DNA of 32,000 nt from Patescibacteria group bacterium (lineage in GTDB: Bacteria; Patescibacteriota; Microgenomatia; UBA1400; JAHJAY01), in the NCBI GenBank assembly GCA_018813815.1, contig JAHJAY010000041.1, positions 1 through 32,000 on the forward strand, read 5' to 3'. Of this stretch, positions 8,880 to 23,515 are shown piece after piece. Every line of letters begins with the position of its first letter. Positions within the stretch are counted from its first letter, which is position 1. The position numbers and the translations under genes are program-made. The notes under the pieces were generated by a model. That model did no database searches. It saw nothing but the letters and a program-made list of their open reading frames with translations, and had not been told where the DNA came from.

Positions 8880-8888
8880 TGTTATACT
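8880..8888 (+). promoter_or_regulatory. Extended -10 TGTTATACT, 6 nt before ATG 8895 (leaderless start predicted)
   Basis: t8880 g8881 t8882 + TATACT 8883-8888, spacer aaactt, ATG 8895. It lies directly after the uvrD stop (TAG 8874-8876). Confidence 0.5.
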
Positions 8889-8894
8889 AAACTT

Positions 8895-9935
8895 ATGATT
8901 ATTCGGCCAATAACGCTTACAGAAAAAGACCAATTCAATCAGGTAGCCAATCATCCGCTTCAATCCTGGGAATGGGGCGAGTTTCGCAAGCAAACCGGCC
9001 TTAAAGTCAGACGCCTAGGCGCTTTTGACGGCAAACAACTTCAGGCCGGATATCAAATAACCATTCACCCAATTCCCAAAACTAATTTTACTATTGGCTA
9101 TTTCCCTCGCGGACCAATGCCTGATTCTACTATGATTAAGGCCTTAACAAGCATTGGCCAGGAAGAAAACTGCTTATTTATTAAACTCGAACCTGATGTT
9201 GCTTTACCAATTAATGCTCAAGCAAACAGTTCAGCTTGGCAAAATGTTGAAGATTTTCTAATCAAACATAATTGTAAGCCCGGCCGGCCCCTTTTTACTC
9301 AATATACTTTTCAAATTGACTTAACTAAAACTGAAAAAGAATTATTAACCCAAATGAAGCCAAAAACGCGCTACAATATCCGCCTGGCAGCCAATAAAGG
9401 TGTTAAAATAGTGCTTGACTCAACTGATCAAGGCTTTAAACAATATCTCCAGCTCCGATCAACAACTTTAAAACGCCAACAGTTTTTTGATCACACTGAA
9501 GATTATAAGTGGCAAATGTGGCACCAGCTCTACCCGGCCGGCATGGCTCATTTACTCAAGGCTGTTTATCAAAACCAAACCTTAGCCGCCTGGGTGTTAT
9601 TCACTTTTAAAAACAGGCTTTACTATCCTTACGGCGCCTCCTCCGACCAGTATCGCGAAGTCATGGCCTCTAACTTACTTATGTGGCAAGCCATGCGTTT
9701 TGGTAAAAAACAAGGTTGTCAAATATTTGATCTCTGGGGCAGCCTTGGCCCTGACCCTGATCCTCAAAACCCATGGTATGGTTTTCATCGTTTTAAAATG
9801 GGTTATGGCGGCCAATTGGTAAAATTCCTGGGCAGTTTTGACTTGGTGCTTAAACCCGGACTTTACCCTTTTTACCGCACAACAGAAACCATCCGTTGGC
9901 AATTTTTAAGACTCCTGGCCAAATGGAAAACCTGA
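8895..9935 (+). CDS. FemAB-family peptidoglycan interpeptide-bridge aminoacyltransferase
   Basis: MKPKTRYNIRLAANKGVKI, YYPYGASS, FDLWG, GFHRFKMGYGG. Its size (346 aa) fits FemX-like enzymes. Confidence 0.85.
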   Translation: MIIRPITLTEKDQFNQVANHPLQSWEWGEFRKQTGLKVRRLGAFDGKQLQAGYQITIHPIPKTNFTIGYFPRGPMPDSTMIKALTSIGQEENCLFIKLEPDVALPINAQANSSAWQNVEDFLIKHNCKPGRPLFTQYTFQIDLTKTEKELLTQMKPKTRYNIRLAANKGVKIVLDSTDQGFKQYLQLRSTTLKRQQFFDHTEDYKWQMWHQLYPAGMAHLLKAVYQNQTLAAWVLFTFKNRLYYPYGASSDQYREVMASNLLMWQAMRFGKKQGCQIFDLWGSLGPDPDPQNPWYGFHRFKMGYGGQLVKFLGSFDLVLKPGLYPFYRTTETIRWQFLRLLAKWKT

Positions 9936-10792: not shown

Positions 10793-10801
10793 TGCTATTA
10801 T
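10793..10801 (+). promoter_or_regulatory. Extended -10 TGCTATTAT, 6 nt before ATG 10808 (leaderless hydrogenase mRNA predicted)
   Basis: t10793 g10794 c10795 + TATTAT 10796-10801, spacer taaacc, ATG 10808. It starts 1 nt after the FemAB stop. Confidence 0.5.
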
Positions 10802-10807
10802 TAAACC

Positions 10808-12499
10808 ATGGCCAAAACTAAAATTGCGGTTTTTGATCTTACCGGCTGTGACGGCTGCCAATTTCACTTAATGTCTCTAAACGAACTTTTGCTGGATCTT
10901 TTCCAAGATTTTGAAATTAACTACTGGCGTCTGCTGACCGAACCAAGCAAAATTGATTGTGACATTGCTATTATTGAAGGTGCGGTTACTACCGAAGAGC
11001 ATATTAAGCTCTTAAAAGAAATTCGCCAAACTTCAAAAGTGGTTATTGCCATTGGCGCCTGCGCTTTAAACGGCAATGTTTTTGCTCAAATTCCCCAAAA
11101 GCAACGAGCTAAACTGGCAGCCAAAATTTACGATGCCAATTACCAGCTTAAAGCTAAATTTTTAGAGCCGGTCGCCAAATTTATTCAGGTTGATGAACAA
11201 GTGTCCGGCTGCCCGCCAAACATTGAGGATTTCAAAAAAATCCTGGCCAAATATCAAAAAGAGCCGGTTGTTTCCGCTCTCAAAACCGTCACTGTACCTG
11301 ATTATGTGGCTAAAATTGAGGGCCATGGTATTTTAAAAATTAATTTTAAAACTCAACAGGCCAGTTTTCAAGTTGAAGAAAGTGAGCGTTTAATTGAAGG
11401 CTTATTAATAGGTAAAAAATTCCAGCAAGCCCCATTTATTAATGCCCGGATTTGCGGCATCTGTCCGGTAGCTCACAATCTCTGTTCTTGGGCGGCAATT
11501 GAAAATGCTTATCAAGTTCAACCTCTATTGGCAGTGATTAATTTAAGAAAACTTTTATTGGCCGCTCAAACAATTAAAAGTCATGTGCTTCATCTTTTCT
11601 TTTTAGTTTTACCTGATTATGCCCAAGTTAAAGGCGGGATTGAATTGGCCACTAAATATCCGGCTGAGTTTCATTTAATGCTTAATATCAAACGTACGGC
11701 TGATCGGACAATGGAAATTGTTGGTGGCTCAAGCGCTTTTCCCACCACGACGATTTTAGGCGGCTTTGCTCAAATGCCGGATTTAATTGAACTTAAAAAA
11801 ATCAGCCAGTCAATTGAGGAAATCCTGGATGAAGCTGAAGATTTGGTTAAGCTTTTTGCTTCCCTGAAAATACCAAGCCTAACCACTCAAACCCGGCTTT
11901 TAACCACCAACCCGGTTAGTGGACAATATCCGCTTTATCCCGGTAGTTTAAATACCACAATTAAAGAAAGTGTTCAGTCAAAATCAACCGCCAAGCTTGG
12001 CATTTTGGCAGATGGTACGGTTATCAAAGTTGGCGCCTTAGCCCGCCTGTCCAGCTATGCTGATAATCTCCATTCACAAGCCAAAGAGCTTTGGCAACAA
12101 CACCCGGTTGACCCGCATAACCCTTTTGACAACAATTTGGCTCAAGCAATTGAAGTCTTACATTTCTTAGAAGAAATCCAACTCTTGGTTGAAGATTTAA
12201 CCAAAACCGACCTCAATCAAACAATTGGTTTAAAAACCCCGCCAAGCCTCAAACAGGCTGTTTCCGGTCAAGCCGCCTTAGAAGCTCCTCGGGGTGTTTT
12301 AATCCACCAGGTAACTCTTGAACCTGATGGCACTATTCAAAATTACAACATTATTCCGCCCACGCAAATTAATCTGGCTTCTTTAAACCATGAAGCTCAA
12401 ATTTTGGCTCAACAAAGTCAAACCCAAACCAACTTAAAAAAATCAGCCGAACAGCTTATCCGCGCCTTTGATCCCTGCATCACCTGCGCAGTGCATTAA
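10808..12499 (+). CDS. [NiFe]-hydrogenase, small-subunit (proximal-cluster domain only) fused to large subunit
   Basis: The N-terminal 150 aa are small-subunit-like: KIAVFDLTGCDGCQ (C14, C17), IAIGACALNG (C85), QVSGCPPN (C135). A linker of about 30 aa without Cys follows. The large subunit has AKIEGHG, RICGICPVAH (L1) and C-terminal DPCITCAVH (L2), with stop TAA immediately after the His. Confidence 0.9.
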   Translation: MAKTKIAVFDLTGCDGCQFHLMSLNELLLDLFQDFEINYWRLLTEPSKIDCDIAIIEGAVTTEEHIKLLKEIRQTSKVVIAIGACALNGNVFAQIPQKQRAKLAAKIYDANYQLKAKFLEPVAKFIQVDEQVSGCPPNIEDFKKILAKYQKEPVVSALKTVTVPDYVAKIEGHGILKINFKTQQASFQVEESERLIEGLLIGKKFQQAPFINARICGICPVAHNLCSWAAIENAYQVQPLLAVINLRKLLLAAQTIKSHVLHLFFLVLPDYAQVKGGIELATKYPAEFHLMLNIKRTADRTMEIVGGSSAFPTTTILGGFAQMPDLIELKKISQSIEEILDEAEDLVKLFASLKIPSLTTQTRLLTTNPVSGQYPLYPGSLNTTIKESVQSKSTAKLGILADGTVIKVGALARLSSYADNLHSQAKELWQQHPVDPHNPFDNNLAQAIEVLHFLEEIQLLVEDLTKTDLNQTIGLKTPPSLKQAVSGQAALEAPRGVLIHQVTLEPDGTIQNYNIIPPTQINLASLNHEAQILAQQSQTQTNLKKSAEQLIRAFDPCITCAVH

Positions 12500-13074
12500 A
12501 TGGTTTTTCTGGTATATTTCTCTAAATTATCCTTCTGCTTTTGAGTCAAAATCTGACAGCGCTGGCCCCAATGATAGGATATAAACTTACCGGCTTCTTC
12601 TTGCCAACTAATTTGACACAGCTGGCGGCGACGTTCGTCAAATTTAACCCGGCCAGTAACTGAACCAACTACCAAAACATGGAAACTGTGATGGGCTACT
12701 GCTTTTGGACCAATCCGGCGGCAACGTTTTTTGGCGGTTGATAAACTCAATAGTCCCGGCCGGGTAAATTCTTTAATAATTAAGTTTTTCAAATCATTAA
12801 CCCTGACCTGCTCTAAAAGCTCGTTGCCAAGCCAATAAGCTTCAACCACTTTTGCATTCAATGGATCAGTGATTCGGTTACTTTTGGCAATCAAAACATA
12901 ATAAGGATAAGCGGCTTCAAAAGTGGATAAAACCTGCCTAACCTTATTTTCATCAACTGCTTTACCCTTAAGAAAATTCTCCAGAATTTCACTCGTTTGT
13001 TTAATTTTTTGACCGCAAAAACCGAGACGGCAAGGTGGATAACTATAAAGCGCGGCCAGGCGCAAACCGGACAT
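12496..13074 (-). CDS. Conserved-looking hypothetical protein, Cys/His-rich, last gene of hypC operon
   Basis: 192 aa. ATG 13074 is preceded by AAGGAG with a 5-nt spacer and overlaps the eamA-like gene by 32 nt. Motifs are YPPCRLGFCG, AVAHHSFHV and two further Cys. I cannot name a family from the sequence. Confidence 0.65.
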   Translation of the reverse strand: MSGLRLAALYSYPPCRLGFCGQKIKQTSEILENFLKGKAVDENKVRQVLSTFEAAYPYYVLIAKSNRITDPLNAKVVEAYWLGNELLEQVRVNDLKNLIIKEFTRPGLLSLSTAKKRCRRIGPKAVAHHSFHVLVVGSVTGRVKFDERRRQLCQISWQEEAGKFISYHWGQRCQILTQKQKDNLEKYTRKTI

Positions 13075-13939
13075 AATCGCTCCTTTGCCGCAGTAAAAAA
13101 GTCACACCAACCCCAAATAAAAGCATGCCAAAAATTTGCTGACCAGCCGGAATCACACCCAAAACTGTTAAGGAAAGCAAGGTAGTAATCGGACTGCCCA
13201 AGGTTAAAATCGCTGTTCCTAAACTAACCGGCAGACGCTTTAAAGCCGAATACCAGCTAACTACATAACCTAACAAAAAAAGACTGGTAATAACAATGCC
13301 TCTGATTTGTACTAAGCCAAAATTGTCAAATTGCAACCATTGGCGATTAAACAGCAAAAACACCCCAATGAGCAATGAACCAAAACCCATCCGGCCAAAA
13401 GCCACAGTTAAAGCCGGTAACCTGCTTAAAAGCTTTTTAGACAATATATTTTCCAGTGCCCATAAAATTGTGGCTGCTAAAATTAAATTATCACCGGGCT
13501 GAAACTTAAAAGAAAAGGCTTTTAAAATAAACAAATTGCCTAAAATCAAAAACGCCGCCGCCCATAGAAATTTTTTATTTAATTTTTCTTTAAGCCAAAA
13601 CCAGCTAAACACGGAAACAAAAATAAACAGATTTTTATGAATCAAGGCGGCATTAACAGCCGTTGTTTGGCTTAAACCCTGGAAAAAAAGCAAAAAAGGT
13701 AAACTGCCGCCAATCAAACCAATCAAACCAAGATTTAACCAGTCTTTAAAACTTAAGGTTTTAAACCTGGACAGTTGTTGAGTCTGATATAAAATTAACC
13801 CCAACCCAATCGCCACTAAAACATTTTTACTCAGAGTAAAAACATAGGGATTTAAACCAGTAATTATCAGTTTGTTAATAAAAATAGATACGCCGGAAAT
13901 CAACGCAGTAATTAAAACCAGTAAAATTCCCTTAGACAT
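13043..13939 (-). CDS. EamA/DMT-superfamily transporter
   Basis: About ten hydrophobic segments arranged as two 5-TM halves. GGGAGG lies 5 nt upstream of ATG 13939, and the gene overlaps hypC by 8 nt. Confidence 0.8.
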   Translation of the reverse strand: MSKGILLVLITALISGVSIFINKLIITGLNPYVFTLSKNVLVAIGLGLILYQTQQLSRFKTLSFKDWLNLGLIGLIGGSLPFLLFFQGLSQTTAVNAALIHKNLFIFVSVFSWFWLKEKLNKKFLWAAAFLILGNLFILKAFSFKFQPGDNLILAATILWALENILSKKLLSRLPALTVAFGRMGFGSLLIGVFLLFNRQWLQFDNFGLVQIRGIVITSLFLLGYVVSWYSALKRLPVSLGTAILTLGSPITTLLSLTVLGVIPAGQQIFGMLLFGVGVTFLLRQRSDYVRFAPGRAL

Positions 13940-14153
13940 GATGGCCTCCCTGCTTAAACAAAGTTAAAGTTTCCCTGGCTTGCTGAGGAGAAACTTTATT
14001 GATCGCCGTATCTTGATAGGCCAATAAGTAATCGCCCACTTTAACTGTTTCATCCAAAGCGGAAACATCCAGCCAATGACAATGATCTGGCAGCTCAACT
14101 TTAGCTTGATGGCCTTTTATGGCAATTACTTTGCCGGGAATTCCTAAACACAT
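13932..14153 (-). CDS. hypC: Hydrogenase maturation chaperone HypC/HybG/HupF
   Basis: Starts MCLGIPGKVIAI, the invariant Cys2 motif. At 73 aa it matches the family size. Confidence 0.93.
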   Translation of the reverse strand: MCLGIPGKVIAIKGHQAKVELPDHCHWLDVSALDETVKVGDYLLAYQDTAINKVSPQQARETLTLFKQGGHHV

Positions 14154-14167
14154 AGCTTAAATCTATT

Positions 14168-14224
14168 TTATTTATCTGGTTTTGGTTTTGGCTTACAAGG
14201 ACCGCATCCACCACATCCACTCAT
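14168..14224 (-). CDS. Unannotated 18-aa Cys-rich micro-protein MSGCGGCGPCKPKPKPDK
   Basis: ATG (14224-14222) is preceded by AGGAGG plus the 5-nt spacer taaac and by an extended -10. Stop TAA is at 14170-14168. hypC starts 14 nt downstream. Confidence 0.6.
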   Translation of the reverse strand: MSGCGGCGPCKPKPKPDK

Positions 14225-14229
14225 GTTTA

Positions 14230-14250
14230 CCTCCTGCAATTATTTTAGCA
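14230..14250 (-). promoter_or_regulatory. Extended -10 TGCTAAAAT followed by AGGAGG Shine-Dalgarno for the micro-ORF/hypC operon
   Basis: The reverse complement of 14242-14250 is TGCTAAAAT. After a 6-nt spacer, the predicted +1 (14235) is the first A of AGGAGG (14235-14230). Confidence 0.5.
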
Positions 14251-14260
14251 TAAAAAAGTT

Positions 14261-14443
14261 TCAGTCTCTGCGGCAATCAATCTCTGGCTTAGGCGCGCTC
14301 GGCTGACCATGCTTAATCCATTGACCATGTTCACAAATCCAATCATCCTCACTCCCGCCAATTACAAACCTAAGCACCAGCCAAAGCATCAGGCCAACCG
14401 CCAAAAATTTTAATAAACCACCAAACTTCTTCTTATTTTTCAT
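14261..14443 (-). CDS. Small membrane-anchored protein (60 aa), function unknown
   Basis: MKNKKK, then one TM helix (LLKFLAVGLMLWLVLRFVIGG), then a short ectodomain with two Cys (DDWICEHGQWIKHG...IDC). It has its own leaderless-type promoter. Confidence 0.6.
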   Translation of the reverse strand: MKNKKKFGGLLKFLAVGLMLWLVLRFVIGGSEDDWICEHGQWIKHGQPSAPKPEIDCRRD

Positions 14444-14449
14444 TAATCT

Positions 14450-14458
14450 AAAGTATCA
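14450..14458 (-). promoter_or_regulatory. Extended -10 TGATACTTT, 6 nt before ATG 14443 (leaderless start predicted)
   Basis: The reverse complement of aaagtatca (14450-14458) is TGATACTTT, followed by spacer agatta and the ATG. Confidence 0.4.
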
Positions 14459-14477
14459 CATATGTTTATAGCCAAAA

Positions 14478-14684
14478 TCAATTATGAACCTTTTGTTCTT
14501 TAGCTACTGCTTCTCTAATTGAGTCCGACGGATAAATTGCTCTCAAAGAGTAGTGACGACTTTTAATGGTTTCTACTAGTTTTTCCTTGGCTTTCAAACT
14601 ATTTATTAAACGCCAATCCCTGGGGTAATCTCTGCGGCCAAAGCCCTTTAACATAATTTGCTCTTGAATTTTTTGAATAATCAA
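14478..14684 (-). CDS. Hypothetical small basic protein (68 aa from TTG 14684, or 58 aa from ATG 14654)
   Basis: The TTG start forms a TTGA overlap with the upstream stop. An alternative ATG at 14654 has a weak AAGAG upstream. I recognise no family. Confidence 0.5.
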   Translation of the reverse strand: MIIQKIQEQIMLKGFGRRDYPRDWRLINSLKAKEKLVETIKSRHYSLRAIYPSDSIREAVAKEQKVHN

Positions 14685-15580
14685 AACAGGTCTTTCCCTA
14701 CTATAATAATATAATAAACTGAAGGAATACCGCCTAACATTAATAGCTGTTCAAGCCAAAGGGCTTGTACAAAAGTTTCTCCAACTACTGCTTCATTTTC
14801 AATTTGATCCAAACAAAACTCAATACAGGCTTTTTCCGACTCACTAGGCTCTAAAGAAAGAGCTTTCAACATTTCTAATCTTTTTCTGTAATCAATTAAG
14901 CCCTCTAGTTCTATAGTTTCTAGATGCCAAAATAGATACCTGTCGCCAAAATCCGCCCTTCCCCGTCGTGTTTTAACGTAATCTTGATACTTATTTCTTA
15001 AGCGCTCAAAAAGATTGAGCCTTTCCTGTAATTCTTGAGTAGAGCTGGTTAAAACTACTTTTAAGTATGAATGGGCTTCGTCCAGAACACGTAGCGAATC
15101 TCGATCTGCCTTCACTTCATCTGTTTCTAGTTTTTCTAATAAAACCGGGGGTAGTTTATCAACCAAAGAAAAATAATAGTGATCTTCTGGTAAATAAATG
15201 GCTTGAACATTAGGAATCTTATAAGAAGGGAGCCATTGACCTTGACAATCTCTAGCTTCTCCAACAATACCATGCCCATGTCCTTGACGATCGAAATCAT
15301 TAATAAAAACACCCTTATTATCTTTTGTTATTCTATACATCCGAGTCTGATCTTCTATGCCTCCAGCTACATAAATACAAACTACGCCTTTATTGTGCTT
15401 AAATTCCTCGCGAGGATCTACTAAGTATCCTGCTAAAATATCATCAGTTAAAATCCCATTCTCGGGTGGATCGATCCTTAAATAACGAGTTTTAGAGAAA
15501 GGCGGTTGCACTACTAACTCATTGGCAAAAAGTCCTTCTCGGAAAATACTAATTGATGGCGCTGTAGGCTTTTCATCCAT
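14681..15580 (-). CDS. Hypothetical protein (299 aa), two-domain, possible C-terminal hydrophobic anchor
   Basis: Long clean ORF starting 14 nt after the helicase-nuclease stop, with no promoter-like element between them. The N-terminal part looks mixed alpha/beta (GVVCIYVAGGIEDQ, DRQGHGHGIVGE). The C-terminal half is helical and ends in LLMLGGIPSVYYIIIVG. No family recognised. Confidence 0.7.
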   Translation of the reverse strand: MDEKPTAPSISIFREGLFANELVVQPPFSKTRYLRIDPPENGILTDDILAGYLVDPREEFKHNKGVVCIYVAGGIEDQTRMYRITKDNKGVFINDFDRQGHGHGIVGEARDCQGQWLPSYKIPNVQAIYLPEDHYYFSLVDKLPPVLLEKLETDEVKADRDSLRVLDEAHSYLKVVLTSSTQELQERLNLFERLRNKYQDYVKTRRGRADFGDRYLFWHLETIELEGLIDYRKRLEMLKALSLEPSESEKACIEFCLDQIENEAVVGETFVQALWLEQLLMLGGIPSVYYIIIVGKDLF

Positions 15581-15594
15581 AATTTACTTACTAC

Positions 15595-18438
15595 TCATAC
15601 TGCCGGACAGAGCAGACGATAATCGCAAAACTTGCAAAGATAGCCGGGTTTGGCTGAAAAATCAAACTGTTGTATTTGCTTTCGGATAGCGAGAATGTCT
15701 TTTTTCGCTTCTTCTAATTGTTTTTTTGTCCGGGTGGTAGAAACTTTTTTTTGCTCATCCAAAAAATAAAAACTAAAAGTAATTTGTTCCGGTGTCCGGT
15801 TATAAATCCCCGGATCAGTTGCCGCTAAACCATAAATCGTCATCTGCATTGAGCGGTCAACTGTTTTTTGATCCATTAATTTACCGGTTTTATAATCAAT
15901 TATCTCAATTGCGCCGGTTTTTTTCTGATCTATCCGGTCAATTCGTCCTCCTAACCACAAATCCTGCGCCAATTTAATTTTAAAGCCATCTTCCAGGGCT
16001 AAAATTTTGGTTTGAGGATCAAAAGAATGTTGATAATAATCTTTAAACAGTTTTTTAGCTTGGCTATAAGCTTTTTGCTCGTGAGCTTTATTATCATAGC
16101 CTTCACTGATCCAATGTTGTTTTAATAACTTTAATAACTGTTTTAAAGACAACTCCTGGCCGTCTTTTAAAGCCTGATAAAAATCCCGCATCGCTTGATG
16201 CAGACTAGTACCAAAACTTTGAGCATGAGAACGCGGCGCCGGCAATTTTAAAATATGGCGGTATTTATATTGCAAAGGACAATTTTTAAAGGCTTCAATT
16301 TGAGAATAGGATAAATAGGTTATAGAAGGTGGGGTGCAGGAAATAGGTTTTTCTTTTACAGGTTTAAAATCAAACATTGATAGCTGATCTGCTGGCTGAG
16401 CTTTTTCCGGCTTAAACTCTTTACCCAAAGTTTCAAAAACAAACGGGCTAATCTTTTTTAATCGCTTAGCCTCACCATAAAATTTGCTTGCCGTCAGATA
16501 AACCCGATCTTTAGCCCGGGTTAAACCAACATAAAATAACCTGCGCTCTTCTTGTTCATGACTGTCGCCGATCGGTAAAATTTCTTTAACCAGCTTATCG
16601 GGAAGTGGAATTAGTCCCTGCCGCTGGCGACTGGGAAAACGCTCGTTAACCAAATTCACCAAAAAAACCACCGGAAATTCCAAACCCTTGGAAGAATGAA
16701 CGGTTAACAAATTAACGGCATTAACTTCCTGCCAATCACTATCGGTAGCCAAAGGCGATTCGCCTAACTCAAGTTTTAAGTCTAACCATTCAACTACGGC
16801 GAAAACCGAGGCGTCTTCATGCTCGGCTTCGTAAGTTTTTAGTCTGTCAAAAAATTTAGCCAAGTTCTGCACTTGCTGTTCTTTTTTTGCACTCGGCGGA
16901 TCAAGTAAAAACTGATACCAACCGCTTTTTTGAATAAAATCGAATAAAATCTCGCCCGCGGTTTGTTTAGGCAATTGTTTTAAATGACTCTGAATTAGCT
17001 TTACTAAATGACTGAATTTTTCTTTACCGCCAACAGACAATCCTTCTATGGCCTTATTTTTTTCCGCGGCTTCAAATAAACTTAAATTTTGCCGCCGGCT
17101 AAAATTACGCAAAACCGCTAAGTCCCGAGGGTTAAATTTAAAAACTGTCATAGTAGCCAATTTATAAAAAGCAATATCATCTTCAAAATTGTTTAACAAT
17201 TGTAAATAGGCAATCAGATTTTTTACTTCTTCCTGACGCAATAGTTGGCCTGGTCCTAAAAATTGCCAGGGAATTGCCTGACGCTTTAAAGCCCGGACAA
17301 AGGGTTCAGCATGATTGTTGGCTCGAACCAGTATGGCTATATCACCATAATTATATGTTTGAGTAGTAAGTTTCTTAATTTTCTTAATAACTAAATCAGC
17401 TTCATTTTCCACCCGATCAGTAAAAATAAACTTAATTTTTTCGCCCTTTATTTTCTTAATGCTTTTTAAGTTCTTACTAATGCCTAATTTGGACTCTAAA
17501 GTGTCCGGATTGTTATGCTGAATTACATCATAGGCTCGATCAAGAATTTCCTGGGTTGAACGATAATTTTTAAGCAAAGTTATGGTTTTTGCTTTTGGAT
17601 AGTCATCAATGAAGTTGAGAATGTTAGAAACCGCGGCGCCGCGAAATTTGTAAATTGACTGCGAATCGTCTCCTACAACCAAAATGTTCGGCTTACCCTT
17701 AGGCTGACCCAAAAGCTTAACTAATTCATACTGGGCAATGTTAGTGTCTTGAAATTCATCTACTAAAATATATTTAAATTGCTTTTGGTAGCGCTGTCGC
17801 ACATTTTTCCGGGTCTTAAAAAGCTGCAAACTATAACTAATTACATCAGCAAAATCCATCCGGCCGGCTTTTTCTTTAAGTTGCTGATAAGCTTTAAAAG
17901 CGCGCGCCAGCTCCAGATTTTTTTTAACTTCATCCTTTTCGGATTTTGCCCAATCAAGATATTCGCTGGGCGATATGTCCTCATCCCGCAAACGACTAAA
18001 GTAATTAATCAAGCCGGGTAAAAATTTACTCGGATTGCCACGCGGCCGGAAATAGTCAAGTTTTAAAGCAAACAAGTGCTGATTTAAAAACTGAATTGTT
18101 TCCGCTTCAGTCATTAAAACATATTTGGAATCCAACCCTATCTGCATCGCCTCACGCCGTAAAACCCGATCACAAAACGAATGAAAAGTGGAAATCCACA
18201 TTTGGGTATAACCATAAGGCATAATCTCATCCACCCGGGTTTCCATTTCCAAAGCCGATTTATGAGTAAAAGTTAAGGCCAGAATTTCGACTGGTTTTGC
18301 CAATTCCTGAGCAATCAAATATTTAATCCGCTCAGTCACCACCGTAGTTTTACCCGTACCGGCTCCGGCAATAATTAACAGCGGACCCTGACCGTGTTGA
18401 ATTGCCTGAAGCTGTTCAGTGTTAAGCTGCTTTTTCAT
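15595..18438 (-). CDS. UvrD-family helicase fused to C-terminal PD-(D/E)XK Cas4/AddB-like Fe-S nuclease
   Basis: Helicase motifs: AGAGTGKTT, DEFQDTN, GDDSQSIYKFRGA, KNYRS, TVHSSKGLEF, YVGLTRAKDRVYL. Nuclease motifs: CPLQYKY, GRIDRID, EIIDYKTGK, QMTIYGLA, CKFCDYRLLC (one plus three Cys pattern). ATG 18438 is preferred over TTG 18465 and overlaps rmuC by 17 nt. Confidence 0.9.
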   Translation of the reverse strand: MKKQLNTEQLQAIQHGQGPLLIIAGAGTGKTTVVTERIKYLIAQELAKPVEILALTFTHKSALEMETRVDEIMPYGYTQMWISTFHSFCDRVLRREAMQIGLDSKYVLMTEAETIQFLNQHLFALKLDYFRPRGNPSKFLPGLINYFSRLRDEDISPSEYLDWAKSEKDEVKKNLELARAFKAYQQLKEKAGRMDFADVISYSLQLFKTRKNVRQRYQKQFKYILVDEFQDTNIAQYELVKLLGQPKGKPNILVVGDDSQSIYKFRGAAVSNILNFIDDYPKAKTITLLKNYRSTQEILDRAYDVIQHNNPDTLESKLGISKNLKSIKKIKGEKIKFIFTDRVENEADLVIKKIKKLTTQTYNYGDIAILVRANNHAEPFVRALKRQAIPWQFLGPGQLLRQEEVKNLIAYLQLLNNFEDDIAFYKLATMTVFKFNPRDLAVLRNFSRRQNLSLFEAAEKNKAIEGLSVGGKEKFSHLVKLIQSHLKQLPKQTAGEILFDFIQKSGWYQFLLDPPSAKKEQQVQNLAKFFDRLKTYEAEHEDASVFAVVEWLDLKLELGESPLATDSDWQEVNAVNLLTVHSSKGLEFPVVFLVNLVNERFPSRQRQGLIPLPDKLVKEILPIGDSHEQEERRLFYVGLTRAKDRVYLTASKFYGEAKRLKKISPFVFETLGKEFKPEKAQPADQLSMFDFKPVKEKPISCTPPSITYLSYSQIEAFKNCPLQYKYRHILKLPAPRSHAQSFGTSLHQAMRDFYQALKDGQELSLKQLLKLLKQHWISEGYDNKAHEQKAYSQAKKLFKDYYQHSFDPQTKILALEDGFKIKLAQDLWLGGRIDRIDQKKTGAIEIIDYKTGKLMDQKTVDRSMQMTIYGLAATDPGIYNRTPEQITFSFYFLDEQKKVSTTRTKKQLEEAKKDILAIRKQIQQFDFSAKPGYLCKFCDYRLLCPAV

Positions 18439-19459
18439 TCTTATCCAACTGCTTAGTTTCCTCAATAGACTCAGACAACACCCGAGTAGAAGATAATTTT
18501 TGTCCTAACAAGGAAAAGCTTTGAAGCGCATTGGCAAACTGACTGTAAGCATTATTAATATGCTTGCCTAATACGCTTAAAACTCCTTCGGTTTTTTCAT
18601 AGTCTTTTTGAATCGCTCGCAGCAAACGAAAGACCTCGCGTGAGCGAGCCTCAATTTTTTGACCCTCAAAAGATAAAAGTATGGTTTGCAAATGCGCATA
18701 AAGTGTTGTCGGCGACACCGGATAAACCCGGGCACGGCGGGCATAATCAGTTAAATCAGGAATGTTAACAATCTCATAATAAACCGATTCAGAAGGAATA
18801 TACATTAAGGCAAAATCCATAGTTCCTTCTTCCTGCAAAATATATTTTTTGGAAATATCCCGAATATGCTTTTTCACATCAACAGTAAAAGCCTTCTGTA
18901 ATCGATTTTTTTCAGTTTTGTTTTCTGCCGCCATCATTCTCTGAAAATTTTCCATAGGAAACTTGGAATCAATCGGCAACAAACCCGCGTCGGTCTTTAT
19001 GGCCGCATCAACTTTCTCTCCGGATTTAAAGGCGTATTGCAAATAAAAACTGTTTTTAGAAAACATCTGGGAAATCAAATCTTTTAAAACTTCTTCACCA
19101 ATATTTCCGCGCAACTTGGGACTTTTTAAAAACTCCTGCAGCTCTTTCATTGACCGGCCAATTTCACTCATCTCACCAACCCGCTCAGCCACTTCGCTAA
19201 TATAGCGCGCCGCATTATCCAAACGCTTATTCATCGTTGCCGTTGATTGCTGTAAACTATCGGAGAGATTTTTAGATTGTTGCTGTAATCCTTTTTGTAA
19301 ATTCACCGGCACTTGCTGTAAGTTCTCAATAATTTTTAAAAGATTTTCTTCAGATTTAGATGCTTGCGAGAGCTGATTCAGCTTACGGTTAAGTAAATAA
19401 ACCGCTATGGCCACAGCCGCAACTATGACAGCAACTAAAAGATAGATTTCCTTAGGCAT
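18422..19459 (-). CDS. rmuC: DNA recombination protein RmuC
   Basis: N-terminal TM helix and coiled coil, then the RmuC core: KLRGNIGEEVL, LPIDSKFPMENF, DFALMYIPSESVY, YPVSPTTLYAHLQTI. Confidence 0.88.
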   Translation of the reverse strand: MPKEIYLLVAVIVAAVAIAVYLLNRKLNQLSQASKSEENLLKIIENLQQVPVNLQKGLQQQSKNLSDSLQQSTATMNKRLDNAARYISEVAERVGEMSEIGRSMKELQEFLKSPKLRGNIGEEVLKDLISQMFSKNSFYLQYAFKSGEKVDAAIKTDAGLLPIDSKFPMENFQRMMAAENKTEKNRLQKAFTVDVKKHIRDISKKYILQEEGTMDFALMYIPSESVYYEIVNIPDLTDYARRARVYPVSPTTLYAHLQTILLSFEGQKIEARSREVFRLLRAIQKDYEKTEGVLSVLGKHINNAYSQFANALQSFSLLGQKLSSTRVLSESIEETKQLDKNEKAA

Positions 19460-19461
19460 AA

Positions 19462-19477
19462 TGTTATAATTTTAACA
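19462..19477. promoter_or_regulatory. Near-palindromic bidirectional promoter: TGTTATAAT (+) overlapping TGTTAAAAT (-)
   Basis: TGTTATAATTTTAACA fills most of the 21-bp gap between divergent ATGs at 19459 (-) and 19481 (+). Each strand reads as an extended -10, 9-10 nt from its ATG. Confidence 0.5.
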
Positions 19478-20249: not shown

Positions 20250-20258
20250 TGATACAAT
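20250..20258 (+). promoter_or_regulatory. Extended -10 TGATACAAT, 6 nt before ATG 20265 (leaderless metG mRNA predicted)
   Basis: t20250 g20251 a20252 + TACAAT 20253-20258, spacer caatct, ATG 20265. There is no T-box or SD. Confidence 0.5.
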
Positions 20259-20264
20259 CAATCT

Positions 20265-21701
20265 ATGGCTAAAAAGTTTTACCTTACTGTCGCTATTCCT
20301 TATGTTAATGCCGCACCACATCTGGGACACGCGCTGGAATTTCTTCAGGGAGATGTAATCGCCCGCTATCATCGGCTATTGGGTGATAATACTCTTTATC
20401 TGTCTGGCTCTGATGAAAACAGTTTAAAAAATGTTCAAGCAGCTAAAAAACAAAACATTTCCACCCAGCAACTTTGTGAACAAAATACCCAAGCTTTCAA
20501 AAAGCTACTAAAAAAATTAAACATCTCCATTGATATTTGGCAGCGCGGCTCCAGTCAAACCAAACACTGGCCAGGAATTCGGGAATTATGGCAGTGCTGT
20601 CAAAAAAGCGGCGATATTTATAAAAAAAAGTATCAGGGACTTTATTGTATTGGCTGTGAAGAATTTAAGCGGGAAAAAGATTTAGTTAATGGCCGCTGTC
20701 CGGAACATCCTCATAAAAAACTTGAAGTTGTAGAAGAAGAAAACTATTTTTTCCGTTTATCCAAATATGAAAAACAACTGCTTCAATTAATTAAATCAGA
20801 CAAATTACAAATCATTCCTCAAAAAAGGAAAAACGAAACCCTGGGTTTTATTAAACAGGGTCTAGAGGATTTTAGCATTTCCCGATCAGTCGAGCGCGCC
20901 CATGGCTGGGGTATTCCCGTACCTGATGATGACAGCCAGATTATCTATGTTTGGTATGACGCCTTAGCTGAATATATTACCGGCATTGGCTGGAATTGGG
21001 GTTTAAAAAAGTTTCACCAATGGTGGCCGGCTGAACTACATATTATTGGTAAAGGCATTAATCGCTTTCACACCATCTACTGGCCGGCGATGCTGATGTC
21101 GGCCGGATTGGCCTTGCCAAAATCAGTTTTGATTCATGGTTATATTACGGTTGACGGCCGCAAAATGGGTAAATCCATTGGCAATGTAGTTGATCCACTT
21201 GAATTAGTTAAAAAATACGGCACTGATGCAGTCCGCTACTATCTGCTTAAAGAAATCCCCACCACTGATGACGGCGACTTTACGGAAAAACGCTTCAAAG
21301 AACTTTATAATGCTGATTTGGCCAACGGTATCGGCAACCTGGTTCAACGACTAGCCCGGCTCTGTCAAAACTCAGGAGCAAATTTCCCAAAAAACAAACT
21401 TCAGGCTTATCAGAAACCCGGCCAAACCAAAAAATTCATAGATAATTATCGCTTTAATGAAGCCTTAGCCCATATCTGGACTTATATTAAAAGCTTAGAT
21501 AAAAAAATTGACCAAACCAAGCCTTGGGAAAAAAGCGGTCAGGATCTGGGAAAAATCTTAAGCCTTCTCGTTCCCGAAATTCAGCAAATTGGCAGCTATT
21601 TAACTCCCTTTTTGCCTGAAACATCCCAAAAAATCCAAAAAATCTTCGCTGGTCCAAAAATCCGGGCACCCAAAAAACCCCTATTTCCGCGGTTAAAATG
21701 A
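20265..21701 (+). CDS. metG: Methionyl-tRNA synthetase (short form without C-terminal tRNA-binding domain)
   Basis: NAAPHLGH (HIGH-type), GRKMGKSIGN (KMSKS-type) and zinc knuckles CIGCEEF...GRCPEHP. Confidence 0.93.
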   Translation: MAKKFYLTVAIPYVNAAPHLGHALEFLQGDVIARYHRLLGDNTLYLSGSDENSLKNVQAAKKQNISTQQLCEQNTQAFKKLLKKLNISIDIWQRGSSQTKHWPGIRELWQCCQKSGDIYKKKYQGLYCIGCEEFKREKDLVNGRCPEHPHKKLEVVEEENYFFRLSKYEKQLLQLIKSDKLQIIPQKRKNETLGFIKQGLEDFSISRSVERAHGWGIPVPDDDSQIIYVWYDALAEYITGIGWNWGLKKFHQWWPAELHIIGKGINRFHTIYWPAMLMSAGLALPKSVLIHGYITVDGRKMGKSIGNVVDPLELVKKYGTDAVRYYLLKEIPTTDDGDFTEKRFKELYNADLANGIGNLVQRLARLCQNSGANFPKNKLQAYQKPGQTKKFIDNYRFNEALAHIWTYIKSLDKKIDQTKPWEKSGQDLGKILSLLVPEIQQIGSYLTPFLPETSQKIQKIFAGPKIRAPKKPLFPRLK

Positions 21702-22609
21702 AAAAACAATTAAAGCTTAACCACAATTATCTTCTTTTAACTCTAGCTGCTGTTATTTGGGGCATAGACAGCACGGTTGCCAAACCAGTCCTGGAAGTTA
21801 TCCCACCAATTACTTTCTCATTTTTTCGCTTTTTAATCGGCAGCGTTCTGTTCGCCCTAGCTTTGACCTCGGCTAACATTCCAAAAACCATCAACAAAAA
21901 AGACCTACTTAAAACTGCCTCGCTTGCCTTTGTTGATAGTATTATGGTCATTGTTTTGATTAATTTTGGCATCAAGTACACTACCGCCGCCAATGTCTCT
22001 ATTCTTGTTTCCCTGCTGCCACCAATTATTATTGCCCTTTTAGCAGCAATTTTACTCAAAGAAAAGCTGGGCAAAATAAACATTTTGGGTATGTTTACCG
22101 CAACTCTGGGGGTGGCTTTTTTAACCAACCTTTTTTGGGGGCTAAAAGACTTGATTCAAACTCAATTTTTTCTAGGCAATGTTTTAATCGTCATCGCCGC
22201 CTTAGGCTGGGCAATTTACAATATCTGGGGTAAGCCTCTTTTTCAAAAATATCATCCCACTACCATCACTGCTTATATTTTCTTTTTTGCCACTCTTTTT
22301 ACACTTCCATTAGCAATCTGGGAAATCAGCCATAATCAATTGCAATTTCCTCCAAAAGCCATTTTCGGACTCTTATATAATGGCATTGGGTCAGGCTTTA
22401 TTGGCTACTTTTCTTGGAACAAAGGGTTAAAAGCCGTCTCTGCTTCTAAAGCCGGCATTTTTACTTACATAGTGGCTTTAAGCGGCGTAATCGCTGCTGT
22501 GGTATTTTTAAAAGAATCTTTATCGCCTCGTTTTTTAATTGGCGGTTTACTAACTTGTCTCGGACTTTATTTTACAACCAGAAAAGTTGAGGGATATGAA
22601 AAAAATTAA
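21698..22609 (+). CDS. EamA/DMT-superfamily transporter
   Basis: Ten hydrophobic segments with the duplicated EamA architecture. Its start forms an ATGA overlap with the metG stop. Confidence 0.8.
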   Translation: MKKQLKLNHNYLLLTLAAVIWGIDSTVAKPVLEVIPPITFSFFRFLIGSVLFALALTSANIPKTINKKDLLKTASLAFVDSIMVIVLINFGIKYTTAANVSILVSLLPPIIIALLAAILLKEKLGKINILGMFTATLGVAFLTNLFWGLKDLIQTQFFLGNVLIVIAALGWAIYNIWGKPLFQKYHPTTITAYIFFFATLFTLPLAIWEISHNQLQFPPKAIFGLLYNGIGSGFIGYFSWNKGLKAVSASKAGIFTYIVALSGVIAAVVFLKESLSPRFLIGGLLTCLGLYFTTRKVEGYEKN

Positions 22610-23500: not shown

Positions 23501-23509
23501 TGCTAAAAT
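23501..23509 (+). promoter_or_regulatory. Extended -10 TGCTAAAAT, 6 nt before ATG 23516 (leaderless start predicted)
   Basis: t23501 g23502 c23503 + TAAAAT 23504-23509, spacer agcact, ATG 23516. Confidence 0.5.
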
Positions 23510-23515
23510 AGCACT

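What the first reader, a model, noticed from the sequence alone, without database searches (positions are those of the whole stretch)
12496..14250. Minimal orphan maturation operon (micro-ORF, hypC, DMT transporter, Cys/His protein) that uses Shine-Dalgarno sites unlike its neighbours
Four overlapping or abutting minus-strand genes converge on the hydrogenase gene, and the terminal stop codons share TTAA at 12496-12499. Only HypC of the canonical HypABCDEF set is present in the window. It is co-operonic with an EamA/DMT transporter and a 192-aa protein carrying CRLGFCG and AHHSFH motifs. Three of the four starts have strong SD motifs at 5-nt spacing: AGGAGG at 14235-14230, GGGAGG at 13950-13945 and AAGGAG before ATG 13074. 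The other starts I inspected have at most weak SD-like motifs (GAGGG before 22596, AAGAG before 14654), or are preceded by a -10 box at leaderless distance. This different translation-initiation style, together with the unusual gene content, suggests a self-contained module. It may have been acquired horizontally, and the transporter and Cys/His protein may take over metal supply or cofactor-assembly roles.
Basis: partly seen in the sequence, partly recalled or inferred. Interest (0 to 1): 0.65.

Follow-up and report, generated by a model that had tools for sequence, protein, structure and literature searches.

The report
Conserved hydrogenase helper operon with DUF6390
This operon is the local copy of a widespread, never-described three-gene helper set (a HypC-like chaperone, a membrane permease and the unknown protein DUF6390) that sits beside one class of hydrogen-metabolising enzymes; its odd ribosome-binding sites are real but seen only in this lineage.

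Summary
Four minus-strand ORFs (micro-ORF, hypC-like, EamA/DMT permease, a 192-aa Cys/His protein) converge on a fused [NiFe]-hydrogenase gene. Three of their starts carry the only strong Shine-Dalgarno sites among 30 starts in the window.

The 192-aa protein is DUF6390 (PF19927). hypC–EamA–DUF6390 is not an orphan set. EamA lies directly upstream of DUF6390 in 62 of 80 species-level loci from CPR, DPANN, Chloroflexota and Actinomycetota. A group-3 [NiFe] large subunit lies within 10 kb in 42 of 44 full-flank loci.

New here: DUF6390 is a helical domain with no structural match, joined to a HypC-like OB domain. That domain keeps the Cys and His that canonical HypC is thought to use for Fe(CN)2CO. 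The stand-alone HypC is a paralogue with Tyr at the His51 position.

- Canonical hypC-hypD-hypE flank two homologous fused hydrogenases, and DUF6390 sits inside hypA/B/C operons outside CPR. The module is therefore probably an enzyme-specific accessory, not a replacement.
- Composition gives no sign of recent transfer.
- Relatives have neither the SD sites nor the micro-ORF.
- The permease substrate and the presence of hypDEF in this genome are unknown.

The parts
14242..14250 (-). Extended -10 promoter-like box TGCTAAAAT, 17 nt upstream of the micro-ORF ATG. It predicts a leader of about 10 nt that begins at or near the SD.
   Evidence: Same TGnTAnnnT type as the boxes that sit exactly 6 nt before the ATGs at 8895, 10808, 20265 and 23516. 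TGNTAWWAT occurs 17 times against 8.5 expected. Function is inferred, not shown.
14230..14235 (-). Shine-Dalgarno AGGAGG, 5 nt before the micro-ORF ATG
   Evidence: dG -11.7. On its own it is at chance level for the window.
14168..14224 (-). 18-codon micro-ORF MSGCGGCGPCKPKPKPDK (CxxCxxC followed by a KP repeat). It stops 14 nt before the SD-less hypC start.
   Evidence: No homologue upstream of hypC in 80 + 36 related loci. The leader is unstructured (z +1.4) and has no Rfam match. Status uncertain.
13932..14153 (-). HypC/HupF-family chaperone paralogue (73 aa). It has N-terminal Met-Cys, Tyr at the His51 position, a DHCHW motif and a GGHHV tail.
   Evidence: PF01455 E 1.5e-16. TIGR00074 51.4 bits against a cut-off of 48. 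Alignment with canonical HypC and with paralogues.
13945..13950 (-). Shine-Dalgarno GGGAGG, 5 nt before the EamA ATG, inside the last codons of hypC (Q-G-G)
   Evidence: dG -10.9. Absent in L117, which has the same gene order.
13043..13939 (-). EamA/DMT permease (298 aa) of the subfamily that is paired with DUF6390
   Evidence: PF00892, two repeats, E 5.3e-35. Subfamily motifs conserved across 62 sequences. Directly upstream of DUF6390 in 62 of 80 species loci.
13080..13085 (-). Shine-Dalgarno AAGGAG, 5 nt before the DUF6390 ATG, inside EamA codons Q-R-S
   Evidence: dG -8.1. Identical in the 88% relative L010.
12496..13074 (-). DUF6390 protein (192 aa): a helical N-domain (Cys20, HHSFH at 128-132) plus a shortened HypC-like C-domain (Cys153, His168)
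   Evidence: PF19927 E 2.5e-32. Alignments. AF2 pLDDT 93.9. hhalign to HypC E 1.4e-7. Foldseek top hit for the full-length relative is HypC 2z1c.
10808..12499 (+). Client enzyme: a fused small(delta)-large(alpha) group-3b-related ('hyd2'-type) [NiFe]-hydrogenase. It ends at the His of DPCITCAVH, with no C-terminal extension.
   Evidence: Pfam. PDB and NCBIfam best matches are sulfhydrogenase alpha and delta residues 1-148. 36 full-length homologues. 31 of 33 end at the His.
10793..10801 (+). Extended -10 box TGCTATTAT, 6 nt before the hydrogenase ATG (leaderless style, in contrast to the accessory operon)

Best explanation
Genes 12496-14153 are this organism's copy of a conserved but uncharacterised accessory module of cytosolic group-3 [NiFe]-hydrogenases. 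The module comprises a His51-less HypC paralogue, a DMT/EamA permease and DUF6390.

Shown here:
- The three genes travel together and with the hydrogenase across CPR, DPANN, Chloroflexota and Actinomycetota.
- DUF6390 has an N-terminal helical domain with no structural match. That domain carries an invariant Cys and an HHxxH motif.
- Its C-terminal part is a HypC-like OB domain. The invariant Cys and His of that domain align with HypC Cys2 and His51, the residues proposed to hold the Fe(CN)2CO group.

Inferred:
- The HypC paralogue and DUF6390 act as enzyme-specific chaperones or intermediate metal/cofactor carriers for the large subunit. They would work downstream of a canonical HypCDE(F) machinery encoded elsewhere. 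This resembles the way HoxL/HupF and HoxV/HupK assist particular hydrogenases.
- The permease, whose stop overlaps the DUF6390 start, supplies or removes a small solute needed at that step. Ni2+ or a Ni complex is my first guess, at about 0.3.

In this lineage the module has been reorganised:
- It is convergent on a fused hydrogenase that needs no C-terminal processing.
- The OB domain of DUF6390 has lost about 50 residues.
- The operon has become the only leadered, SD-dependent translation unit in an otherwise leaderless/SD-poor window. The SD-led micro-ORF probably serves mainly to load ribosomes 14 nt ahead of the SD-less hypC.
For: Family and domain assignments:
- Pfam and NCBIfam hits.
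- DUF6390 family: 213 hits, one with a weak HypC Pfam hit, one named 'hydrogenase maturation factor' by JGI.
- At least 582 species-level genomes encode it.

Genomic linkage:
- EamA is directly upstream on the same strand in 62 of 80 loci.
- A [NiFe] large subunit lies within 10 kb in 65 of 80 loci, and in 42 of 44 loci of at least 18 kb. All 42 large subunits tested are group-3 type.
- In the fused-hydrogenase family (36 loci), HypC is found in about 30 and EamA-DUF6390 in most contigs long enough. L117 has the identical gene order.

HypC-like domain of DUF6390:
- hhalign E 6.8e-7 and 1.4e-7, with Cys aligned to Cys2 and His to the His51 position.
- Foldseek top PDB hit is HypC 2z1c_B (prob 1.00, TMt 0.74).
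- The PDB profile search also puts HypC first, weakly.
- Invariant C20, H132, C153 and H168 are kept even in the 167-aa short forms.

Other support:
- The window HypC has Tyr at the His51 position. The canonical paralogue next to hypDE keeps the His.
- Canonical hypCDE lie beside fused hydrogenases in L091 and L125.
- DUF6390 sits inside hypA-hypB and hypC-...-hypB operons in L050 and L081.
- Purifying selection: dN/dS 0.12-0.15.
- Roles of HypC C2/H51, HypD C41, HoxL/HupF and HoxV/HupK are taken from PMC12134894.
- Jaffe et al. 2020 (PMC7304191) describe hyd2 with truncated small subunits and a hypC-like neighbour, and say that unknown genes may support its function.
- SD and promoter facts.
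Against: - No experiment exists, and no paper mentions DUF6390 or PF19927.
- The taxonomy of L091 and L125 is unknown. The nearest HypD relatives are mostly archaeal. The presence of hypDEF in a CPR genome with this module, and in this genome in particular, is therefore not shown.
- The N-domain matches nothing in the PDB, so its chemistry is a guess.
- The window's DUF6390 has a truncated OB domain.
- The close relative L010 lacks half of EamA and lacks hypC. The set may therefore be dispensable or decaying in this clade.
- Nothing identifies the permease substrate. Known nickel importers belong to other families (my knowledge).
- The micro-ORF is unconserved, and its SD+ATG is at chance frequency.
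Confidence: 0.6

Rival explanations
1. One reading: a self-contained minimal maturation system. In it the HypC paralogue, DUF6390 and the permease replace HypA/B/D/E/F. DUF6390 would act as a one-protein HypC-HypD-like scaffold, with a precursor or metal imported from a host through the permease.
For: - No hypA/B/D/E/F in the 32-kb window or within 10 kb of most CPR loci.
- DUF6390 combines HypC-type Cys/His with extra conserved Cys/His.
- CPR HypCs next to it lack His51.
- CPR bacteria are reduced episymbionts (Jaffe et al.).
- The large subunit lacks a C-terminal extension, so at least the protease step is dispensable.
Against: - hypC-hypD-hypE lie directly beside homologous fused hydrogenases in L091 and L125.
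- A HypD is annotated in a Kuenenbacteria MAG.
- DUF6390 coexists with hypA/hypB/hypC in Chloroflexota and Bacillota loci and with canonical His-bearing HypC in L074 and L084.
- DUF6390 has no [4Fe-4S] motif and no ATP-binding or carbamoyl-transfer domain. No route to CN or CO is therefore visible.
- hyp genes are commonly unlinked from structural genes (my knowledge).
Confidence: 0.12
2. The module is not a maturation system but a functional partner of the enzyme. DUF6390 would be a redox or metal-centre protein and the permease would handle the enzyme's physiological substrate or product (for example a sulfur compound). This would supply the 'unknown genes' that stand in for the missing beta/gamma subunits of hyd2.
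For: - hyd2 and the fused enzymes lack beta/gamma subunits and keep only the proximal-cluster part of the small subunit.
- The link with a membrane permease is tight.
- DUF6390 has conserved Cys/His residues.
Against: - The module is equally present in four-subunit hyd1 operons that have their own beta/gamma subunits (L003/L004, L016, L082).
- Its only detectable homology is to the HypC chaperone.
- It lies among hypA/B/C genes outside CPR.
- Two Cys plus His residues are not a recognisable Fe-S or flavin site.
- Short DUF6390 forms occur without the permease.
Confidence: 0.15
3. The SD sites and the micro-ORF mark a recent horizontal acquisition from an SD-using donor. The alternative within this rival is that they are chance sequences with no role in translation.
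For: - Three SDs are clustered in one operon in an SD-poor window.
- Jaffe et al. infer patchy, transfer-shaped distributions of CPR hydrogenases.
- GGAGG-N-ATG is at chance frequency overall.
Against: - GC, GC3 and trinucleotide profile of the module are typical for the window. The hydrogenase next door has a native-style leaderless promoter.
- The nearest relatives of every module gene are CPR sequences without SDs.
- The SD before DUF6390 is retained in an 88% relative at dS of about 0.35-0.6. Two of the three SDs sit exactly 5 nt before confirmed protein starts.
- AGGAG is depleted in the window (25 against 40.6 expected). This hints that the anti-SD is active.
Confidence: 0.1

Closest known systems
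HypC/HybG chaperones of the canonical HypCD scaffold
   Same: The 73-aa protein scores above the Pfam and TIGRFAM cut-offs and starts with Met-Cys. The C-domain of DUF6390 is an OB fold that aligns end to end with HypC, including the Cys2 and His51 positions.
   Different: The stand-alone protein has Tyr at the His51 position and an extra HxHW motif. In DUF6390 the 'Cys2' is internal, preceded by a helical domain of about 150 aa, so it cannot be a free N-terminal cysteine. No HypD partner is visible in the window.
HoxL/HupF (enzyme-specific HypC paralogues) with HoxV/HupK (intermediate Fe(CN)2CO scaffolds) of proteobacterial uptake hydrogenases (PMC12134894)
   Same: An extra HypC-family paralogue is encoded beside a particular hydrogenase, together with a second ancillary protein bearing conserved Cys. 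The canonical HypC sits with hypD/E elsewhere (L091).
   Different: DUF6390 shows no similarity to large subunits, unlike HoxV/HupK. The clients are cytosolic group-3 enzymes of anaerobes, not O2-tolerant group-1 enzymes. A membrane permease is part of the set.
CPR 'hyd1/hyd2' group-3b-related hydrogenase loci (Jaffe et al. 2020, PMC7304191)
   Same: The small-subunit moiety is truncated (about 164 aa), beta/gamma subunits are absent, and a hypC-like family lies in the neighbourhood. The window enzyme fits hyd2.
   Different: Here the small and large subunits are fused into one 563-aa protein (36 homologues). The main text of the paper does not mention the EamA permease or DUF6390.
Nickel delivery systems (HypA/HypB/SlyD with NikABCDE, NiCoT or HupE importers)
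   Same: A cytosolic Cys/His-rich protein is genetically coupled to a membrane transporter next to a hydrogenase. Many HypC paralogues of this subfamily have His-rich tails (HHH, HHHH, GGHHV). The micro-ORF's CxxCxxC recalls the CxxCGC Ni site at the HypB N-terminus. These are resemblances only.
   Different: There is no sequence or fold similarity to HypA, HypB or SlyD. EamA/DMT is not a known nickel-importer family (my knowledge). DUF6390 coexists with HypA/HypB in L050 and L081.

Membership tests
HypC/HupF family (PF01455, TIGR00074) | Profile score above the curated cut-off | tested here: met
   PF01455 60.7 bits against 28.5. TIGR00074 51.4 against 48.
HypC/HupF family (PF01455, TIGR00074) | Essential N-terminal cysteine (Met-Cys start) | tested here: met
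   MCLGIPGKV...
HypC/HupF family (PF01455, TIGR00074) | Conserved His51 of canonical HypC/HybG (proposed Fe ligand; PMC12134894) | tested here: not met
   GDYLLAYQDTAI: Tyr at that position. The whole paralogue subfamily shares this, while the paralogue next to hypDE keeps His.
HypC/HupF family (PF01455, TIGR00074) | Works with a HypD partner | not testable with these tools
   No HypD in the window.
DUF6390 (PF19927) | Profile score above the gathering cut-off | tested here: met
   112.7 bits against 25, E 2.5e-32
DUF6390 (PF19927) | Full two-domain architecture of about 240 aa (helical domain plus complete OB domain) | tested here: not met
   192 aa, with an internal deletion of about 50 aa in the OB domain, shared only with P0002. 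Three strands remain in the model.
DUF6390 (PF19927) | Invariant Cys20, His132, Cys153 and His168 (plus His128/129) | tested here: met
   All are present in the window protein
DUF6390 (PF19927) | EamA permease gene immediately upstream and a group-3 [NiFe] hydrogenase nearby | tested here: met
   Window layout. Family-wide figures are 62/80 and 42/44.
EamA / drug-metabolite transporter superfamily (PF00892) | Two EamA repeats above the cut-off | tested here: met
   121 bits, 2 stretches
EamA / drug-metabolite transporter superfamily (PF00892) | Assignable substrate (equivalog level) | tested here: not met
   Best NCBIfam hits (TIGR00950, YddG) are far below their cut-offs. It is only 24% identical to the window's other EamA.
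Canonical HypABCDEF maturation set | HypA, HypB, HypD, HypE and HypF encoded with the module | tested here: not met
   tblastn with the E. coli proteins finds only HypC in the window
Canonical HypABCDEF maturation set | HypD/E/F present elsewhere in the same genome | not testable with these tools
   Only the window is available. Indirect evidence: L091 and L125 have hypCDE beside homologous fused hydrogenases.
Group 3b [NiFe]-hydrogenase (client enzyme) | Ni-Fe ligand motifs RxCGxC...H and DPCxxCxxH, and proximal-cluster cysteines | tested here: met
   RICGICPVAH, DPCITCAVH, GCDGC, GACA and GCPP are in the translation
Group 3b [NiFe]-hydrogenase (client enzyme) | Heterotetramer with beta (Fe-S) and gamma (FAD/NAD) subunits and a full-length delta subunit | tested here: not met
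   No Fer4_22 or NAD_binding genes in the window. The delta part covers only residues 1-148 of 261. The score is far below the equivalog cut-off. It fits 'hyd2' of Jaffe et al..
HoxL/HupF + HoxV/HupK ancillary scaffold pair | Second ancillary protein homologous to the hydrogenase large subunit | tested here: not met
   The DUF6390 N-domain has no PDB fold match and the C-domain matches HypC
SD-dependent translation initiation | Purine-rich motif complementary to CCUCC, 5-10 nt before the start codon | tested here: met
   Three of four starts, each with 5-nt spacing
SD-dependent translation initiation | Anti-SD present and accessible in this organism's 16S rRNA | not testable with these tools
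   No rRNA in the window. AGGAG depletion is only a hint.

The most novel reading that the evidence does not exclude
The His51-less HypC, DUF6390 and the DMT permease form a previously unrecognised branch of [NiFe]-cofactor biogenesis. DUF6390 would be a single-polypeptide carrier that holds Fe(CN)2CO or nickel between HypC-type Cys/His and its own Cys/HHxxH, and it would be physically coupled to a membrane permease. In reduced episymbionts (CPR, DPANN) this could allow a streamlined, protease-independent hydrogenase to mature from an imported metal or precursor, with few or none of HypD/E/F.
Probability: 0.12. Interest if true: 0.85.

Novelty: new variant of a known kind. Interest (0 to 1): 0.58.

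Why it matters
Six Hyp proteins are held to be necessary for every [NiFe]-hydrogenase (PMC12134894). How ultra-small CPR and DPANN cells mature their patchily distributed group-3b-type enzymes has not been examined. Jaffe et al. left hyd2 'supported by unknown genes'.

This work identifies a specific, very widespread and testable candidate set. It also gives DUF6390 a first structural and evolutionary anchor: a HypC-like domain that keeps the cofactor-ligating Cys and His.

If DUF6390 proves to be a cofactor or nickel carrier tied to a permease, it would add a new component to a textbook metallocentre pathway. It might also help heterologous production of minimal hydrogenases.

The translation observation is a smaller point. 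A single SD-led, leadered operon in a leaderless background suggests operon-specific translational control. That is worth a genome-wide check.

Tried and rejected
- Fold matches for the DUF6390 N-domain. Foldseek against the PDB with two high-confidence models gave nothing for the helical domain. A PDB sequence-profile search gave only a weak HypC hit.
- Micro-ORF homologues. I scanned 700 nt upstream of hypC/EamA in 80 GTDB loci and 220 nt upstream of hypC in 36 metagenome loci for small Cys-rich ORFs. Only C-terminal ends of other genes turned up.
- Riboswitch or structured leader. Rfam found nothing at the gathering threshold or at E<=1. Folding is no better than shuffles.
- SD as a family trait. 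Rejected, because relatives lack it.
- Compositional evidence for transfer. None for the module. The outlier is the neighbouring stretch at 13.8-16.2 kb.
- EamA-DUF6390 gene fusions in Actinomycetota. The long ORFs were N-terminal over-extensions from my crude ORF caller, with no EamA similarity.
- An initial count of 'EamA in 80/80 loci' was inflated. In 18 loci the nearest apparent EamA hit ended at the end of the DUF6390 gene. I recounted with adjacency required, which gives 62/80.
- The consensus sigma-70 and terminator scan of the operon was below the shuffle expectation and uninformative.
- Literature. No paper mentions DUF6390 or PF19927, and none describes CPR hyp gene sets.
HypD relatives of L091 did not link to the window's samples.

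Full report
**1. What is there**

The window has 40% GC. It carries bacterial envelope and housekeeping genes (FemAB, LytR, UvrD/AddA-like helicases, MetRS, TatD, glycosyltransferases). The closest relatives of the genes studied come from Candidate Phyla Radiation (CPR) MAGs such as Woykebacteria, Portnoybacteria and Gottesmanbacteria.

On the minus strand lie four ORFs:
- an 18-codon micro-ORF (14224-14168, MSGCGGCGPCKPKPKPDK);
- a 73-aa HypC-family protein (14153-13932);
- a 298-aa EamA/DMT permease (13939-13043);
- a 192-aa protein (13074-12496).

This last ORF ends in a shared TTAA with a convergent 563-aa fused small+large-subunit [NiFe]-hydrogenase (10808-12499).

**2. The Shine-Dalgarno observation**

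I scored the 20 nt before each of 30 starts against the anti-SD. The micro-ORF (-11.7), EamA (-10.9) and the 192-aa gene (-8.1 kcal/mol) stand alone. The next best value is -6.3 and most are near zero. Allowing any alternative start in the first 50 codons does not produce a genuine SD elsewhere.

Several other genes carry an extended -10 box (TGnTAnnnT) exactly 6 nt before the ATG. This is the leaderless arrangement, and it includes the hydrogenase gene (TGCTATTAT at 10793-10801). The accessory operon has the same kind of box (TGCTAAAAT, 14250-14242), but 17 nt upstream. This leaves a leader of about 10 nt that consists of the SD and its spacer.

Two cautions apply. GGAGG-N4-9-ATG occurs 4 times against 3.2 expected in the window, so the micro-ORF's SD+ATG alone is not significant. 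Only 32 kb of the genome is visible.

**3. Is the SD a sign of foreign origin?**

No evidence supports this.
- GC, GC3 and trinucleotide profile of the module are ordinary for the window (z from -0.6 to +0.6). The outlier is the neighbouring 13.8-16.2 kb stretch.
- Against an 88%-identical relative (L010), dN/dS is 0.13 for DUF6390, 0.12 for EamA and 0.15 for the hydrogenase. The AAGGAG before DUF6390 is unchanged in that relative.
- The same module in 80 species-level genomes and 36 metagenome loci almost never has SDs. About 4% of other genes there reach -8 kcal/mol.
- L117 has exactly the window's gene order. Its hypC is leaderless-style and it has no SDs.

The SDs are therefore a lineage-specific acquisition. 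The GGGAGG arose from two codon changes in the variable HypC tail (QDNHHG in L117, QGGHHV here). The AAGGAG precedes an unusually long 32-nt overlap, compared with 14 nt in relatives.

**4. The micro-ORF**

No small Cys-rich ORF precedes hypC or EamA in any of the 116 related loci. The leader has no Rfam match and is not structured.

The micro-ORF's stop lies 14 nt before the SD-less hypC ATG. The simplest role is therefore ribosome loading by termination-reinitiation. A metal-binding peptide is possible: its CxxCxxC recalls the HypB N-terminal CxxCGC. That idea rests on resemblance only.

**5. What the 192-aa protein is**

It is a member of DUF6390 (PF19927, E 2.5e-32). No paper in the library mentions this family.

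The family is large. The search returned 213 hits. One of them (P0017) also has a weak HypC Pfam hit over its C-terminal part, and one is named 'hydrogenase maturation factor' by JGI. At least 582 GTDB species genomes from CPR, DPANN archaea, Chloroflexota and Actinomycetota encode it, including cultured Pedococcus and Actinotalea.

Alignments show invariant Cys20, His132, Cys153 and His168, and near-invariant His128/129. AlphaFold models are confident: pLDDT 93.9 for the window protein and 95.7 for a full-length relative.

The N-terminal helical domain of about 150 residues matches nothing in the PDB. The C-terminal domain is an OB fold. Several results tie it to HypC:
- Its best PDB match is HypC of Thermococcus kodakarensis (2z1c_B, probability 1.00, TM 0.74 normalised to HypC).
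- Profile-profile comparison aligns the DUF6390 C-domain end to end with HypC (94% probability, E 1.4e-7).
- In that alignment the invariant Cys falls on HypC Cys2, 'GKV' falls on 'GKV', and 'GDWVSFHW' falls on 'GDWVLVHxG', so the invariant His sits at the His51 position.

C2 and H51 are the HypC residues proposed to coordinate the Fe(CN)2CO group together with HypD C41 (PMC12134894).

The window protein and its 87% relative have lost about 50 residues from the middle of the OB domain, but they keep Cys153 and His168. Still shorter forms of 167 aa, which occur without a permease next to some fused hydrogenases, also keep the Cys/HH/Cys/His set.

**6. The 'hypC'**

It passes the family thresholds and starts Met-Cys. 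However, it belongs to a paralogue subfamily in which His51 is replaced (GDYL(I/L)xYQxxAINK). The subfamily also has a conserved HxHW hairpin motif and variable tails, many of them His-rich.

In L091 and L125 a second, canonical HypC (LVHAGF) sits with hypD and hypE (HypD PF01924, E 2e-147) right beside a homologous fused hydrogenase. The His-less paralogue sits at the 3' end of the hydrogenase. HypCs adjacent to EamA-DUF6390 in other CPR and DPANN loci also lack the His, whereas some Chloroflexia and Micrococcales neighbours keep it. This is the pattern of an enzyme-specific HypC paralogue such as HoxL or HupF.

**7. Conservation of the set**

- With adjacency required, EamA lies directly upstream of DUF6390 on the same strand in 62 of 80 species loci. 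Four of the remaining loci are cut at the contig end and four have EamA nearby.
- A [NiFe] large subunit lies within 10 kb in 65 of 80 loci, and in 42 of 44 loci with full flanks. All 42 large subunits tested are group-3 type.
- A HypC-family gene is detected in 39 of 80 loci.
- In four-subunit CPR operons the order is hydB-hydG-hypC-EamA-DUF6390-hydD-hydA-hypA-like.
- Outside CPR, DUF6390 is embedded in hyp operons: hypA-hypB-DUF6390 in L050 and hypC-DUF6390-hypB-EamA in L081.
- The permease subfamily has its own conserved polar motifs (NK, IHK, WAxEN, RMxFG). It is only 24% identical to the window's other EamA.

**8. The client enzyme**

Its best matches are the alpha subunit and residues 1-148 of the delta subunit of Pyrococcus/Thermococcus sulfhydrogenase (group 3b). 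The scores are far below equivalog cut-offs. There are no beta or gamma subunit genes in the window.

This fits the CPR 'hyd2' clade of Jaffe et al. 2020. That clade has small subunits truncated to about 164 aa, no beta/gamma subunits and a hypC-like neighbour. The authors say its function is possibly 'supported with unknown genes'. The main text of their paper does not mention a transporter or EamA.

The fused form is itself a family. I found 36 full-length homologues at 51-63% identity. Of these, 31 of 33 end exactly at the His of DPCxxCxxH, so no C-terminal endopeptidase step is needed.

**9. Best explanation and its limits**

The evidence best fits an enzyme-specific accessory module for maturation of group-3 [NiFe]-hydrogenases. 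It would act in addition to the canonical machinery, not in its place. The homology to HypC, the retention of its two functional residues, the position inside hyp operons and the near-obligate linkage to the large subunit are shown. The actual cargo (Fe(CN)2CO, Ni or another metal), the partners and the permease's substrate are inferred.

The self-sufficient 'minimal pathway' reading cannot be excluded. I could not inspect the rest of this genome. The taxonomy of the contigs that carry hypCDE beside fused hydrogenases is uncertain: their HypD relatives are mostly archaeal, with one Kuenenbacteria MAG.

From my own knowledge, untested here: in Bacteroidia, where the anti-SD is occluded, rare SD-led genes are under special translational control. 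A similar logic could apply to this single SD-led operon.

**10. Verdict**

The module is a new variant of a known kind, namely HypC-family-based hydrogenase maturation. It is widespread, has not been described, and has a clear experimental path. Interest is moderate to high for hydrogenase and CPR specialists. The SD and micro-ORF aspect is a local curiosity.

Noticed in passing
window 13800-16200 (ORFs 14681-15580 and 14478-14684, minus strand): This stretch is the compositional outlier of the window (trinucleotide distance z about 2.5). The 299-aa ORF has GC3 of 0.26 against about 0.37 elsewhere. The 299-aa and 68-aa ORFs have no Pfam or NCBIfam hit. It may be foreign DNA lying just upstream of the operon.
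   Followed up: partly
window 8880-8894, 10793-10807, 20250-20264, 23501-23515; also 19462-19477: Extended -10 boxes (TGnTAnnnT) sit exactly 6 nt before the ATGs of four genes, including the hydrogenase. A back-to-back pair serves the divergent genes at 19459/19481. TGNTAWWAT occurs 17 times against 8.5 expected. Leaderless initiation appears to be the norm here.
   Followed up: partly
window 10808-12499; loci L091-L126: The fused small-large 'hyd2'-type hydrogenase is a family of at least 36 metagenomic members. It keeps only the proximal-cluster part of the small subunit. In 31 of 33 members it ends exactly at the His of DPCxxCxxH.
   Followed up: partly
L094, L095-L100, L103-L111 and others (fused-hydrogenase loci): In most of these loci the His-less hypC paralogue is convergent with the hydrogenase gene and overlaps its 3' end by about 45 nt. 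EamA-DUF6390 lie divergently upstream. The window and L117 have a rearranged order.
   Followed up: no
L034:10711-11100 and 18 other hyd2 loci: A conserved ORF of about 129 aa follows DUF6390 directly in loci with separate short small subunits. It has no Pfam hit, but its N-terminal VGNEF...D motif looks like a degenerate HycI-type protease. It is absent from the window, whose enzyme has no C-terminal extension.
   Followed up: partly
L128:2298-10827, L130:9782-17365: hypC-hypD-hypE lie next to carA-carB (carbamoyl-phosphate synthase), which supplies the precursor of the cyanide ligands. L128 also carries a CarS-like CDP-archaeol synthase gene, so these contigs are probably archaeal.
   Followed up: no
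L010 (88% nt relative of window 11585-13483): In this relative, homology to the window stops in the middle of EamA. The 5' half of EamA, hypC and the micro-ORF are replaced by unrelated sequence. DUF6390 there is 201 aa and does not overlap the hydrogenase gene. This is either a real rearrangement or a chimeric 2.4-kb contig.
   Followed up: partly
window 21698-22609 (+): A second EamA/DMT permease, only 24% identical to the one in the operon, overlaps the end of the MetRS gene by 4 nt.
   Followed up: partly
whole window: AGGAG is under-represented: 25 occurrences against 40.6 expected, and 99 of 100 shuffles have at least 25. This is compatible with avoidance of SD-like sequences by a ribosome whose anti-SD is still active.
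   Followed up: no
window 14261-14443 (-): A 60-aa ORF with one predicted hydrophobic helix and a Cys/His-containing tail (DDWICEHGQWIKHGQ...IDC) ends 37 nt before the micro-ORF and lies in the same frame, separated from it by two stop codons. It has no family hit and was not called by the public gene callers.
   Followed up: no
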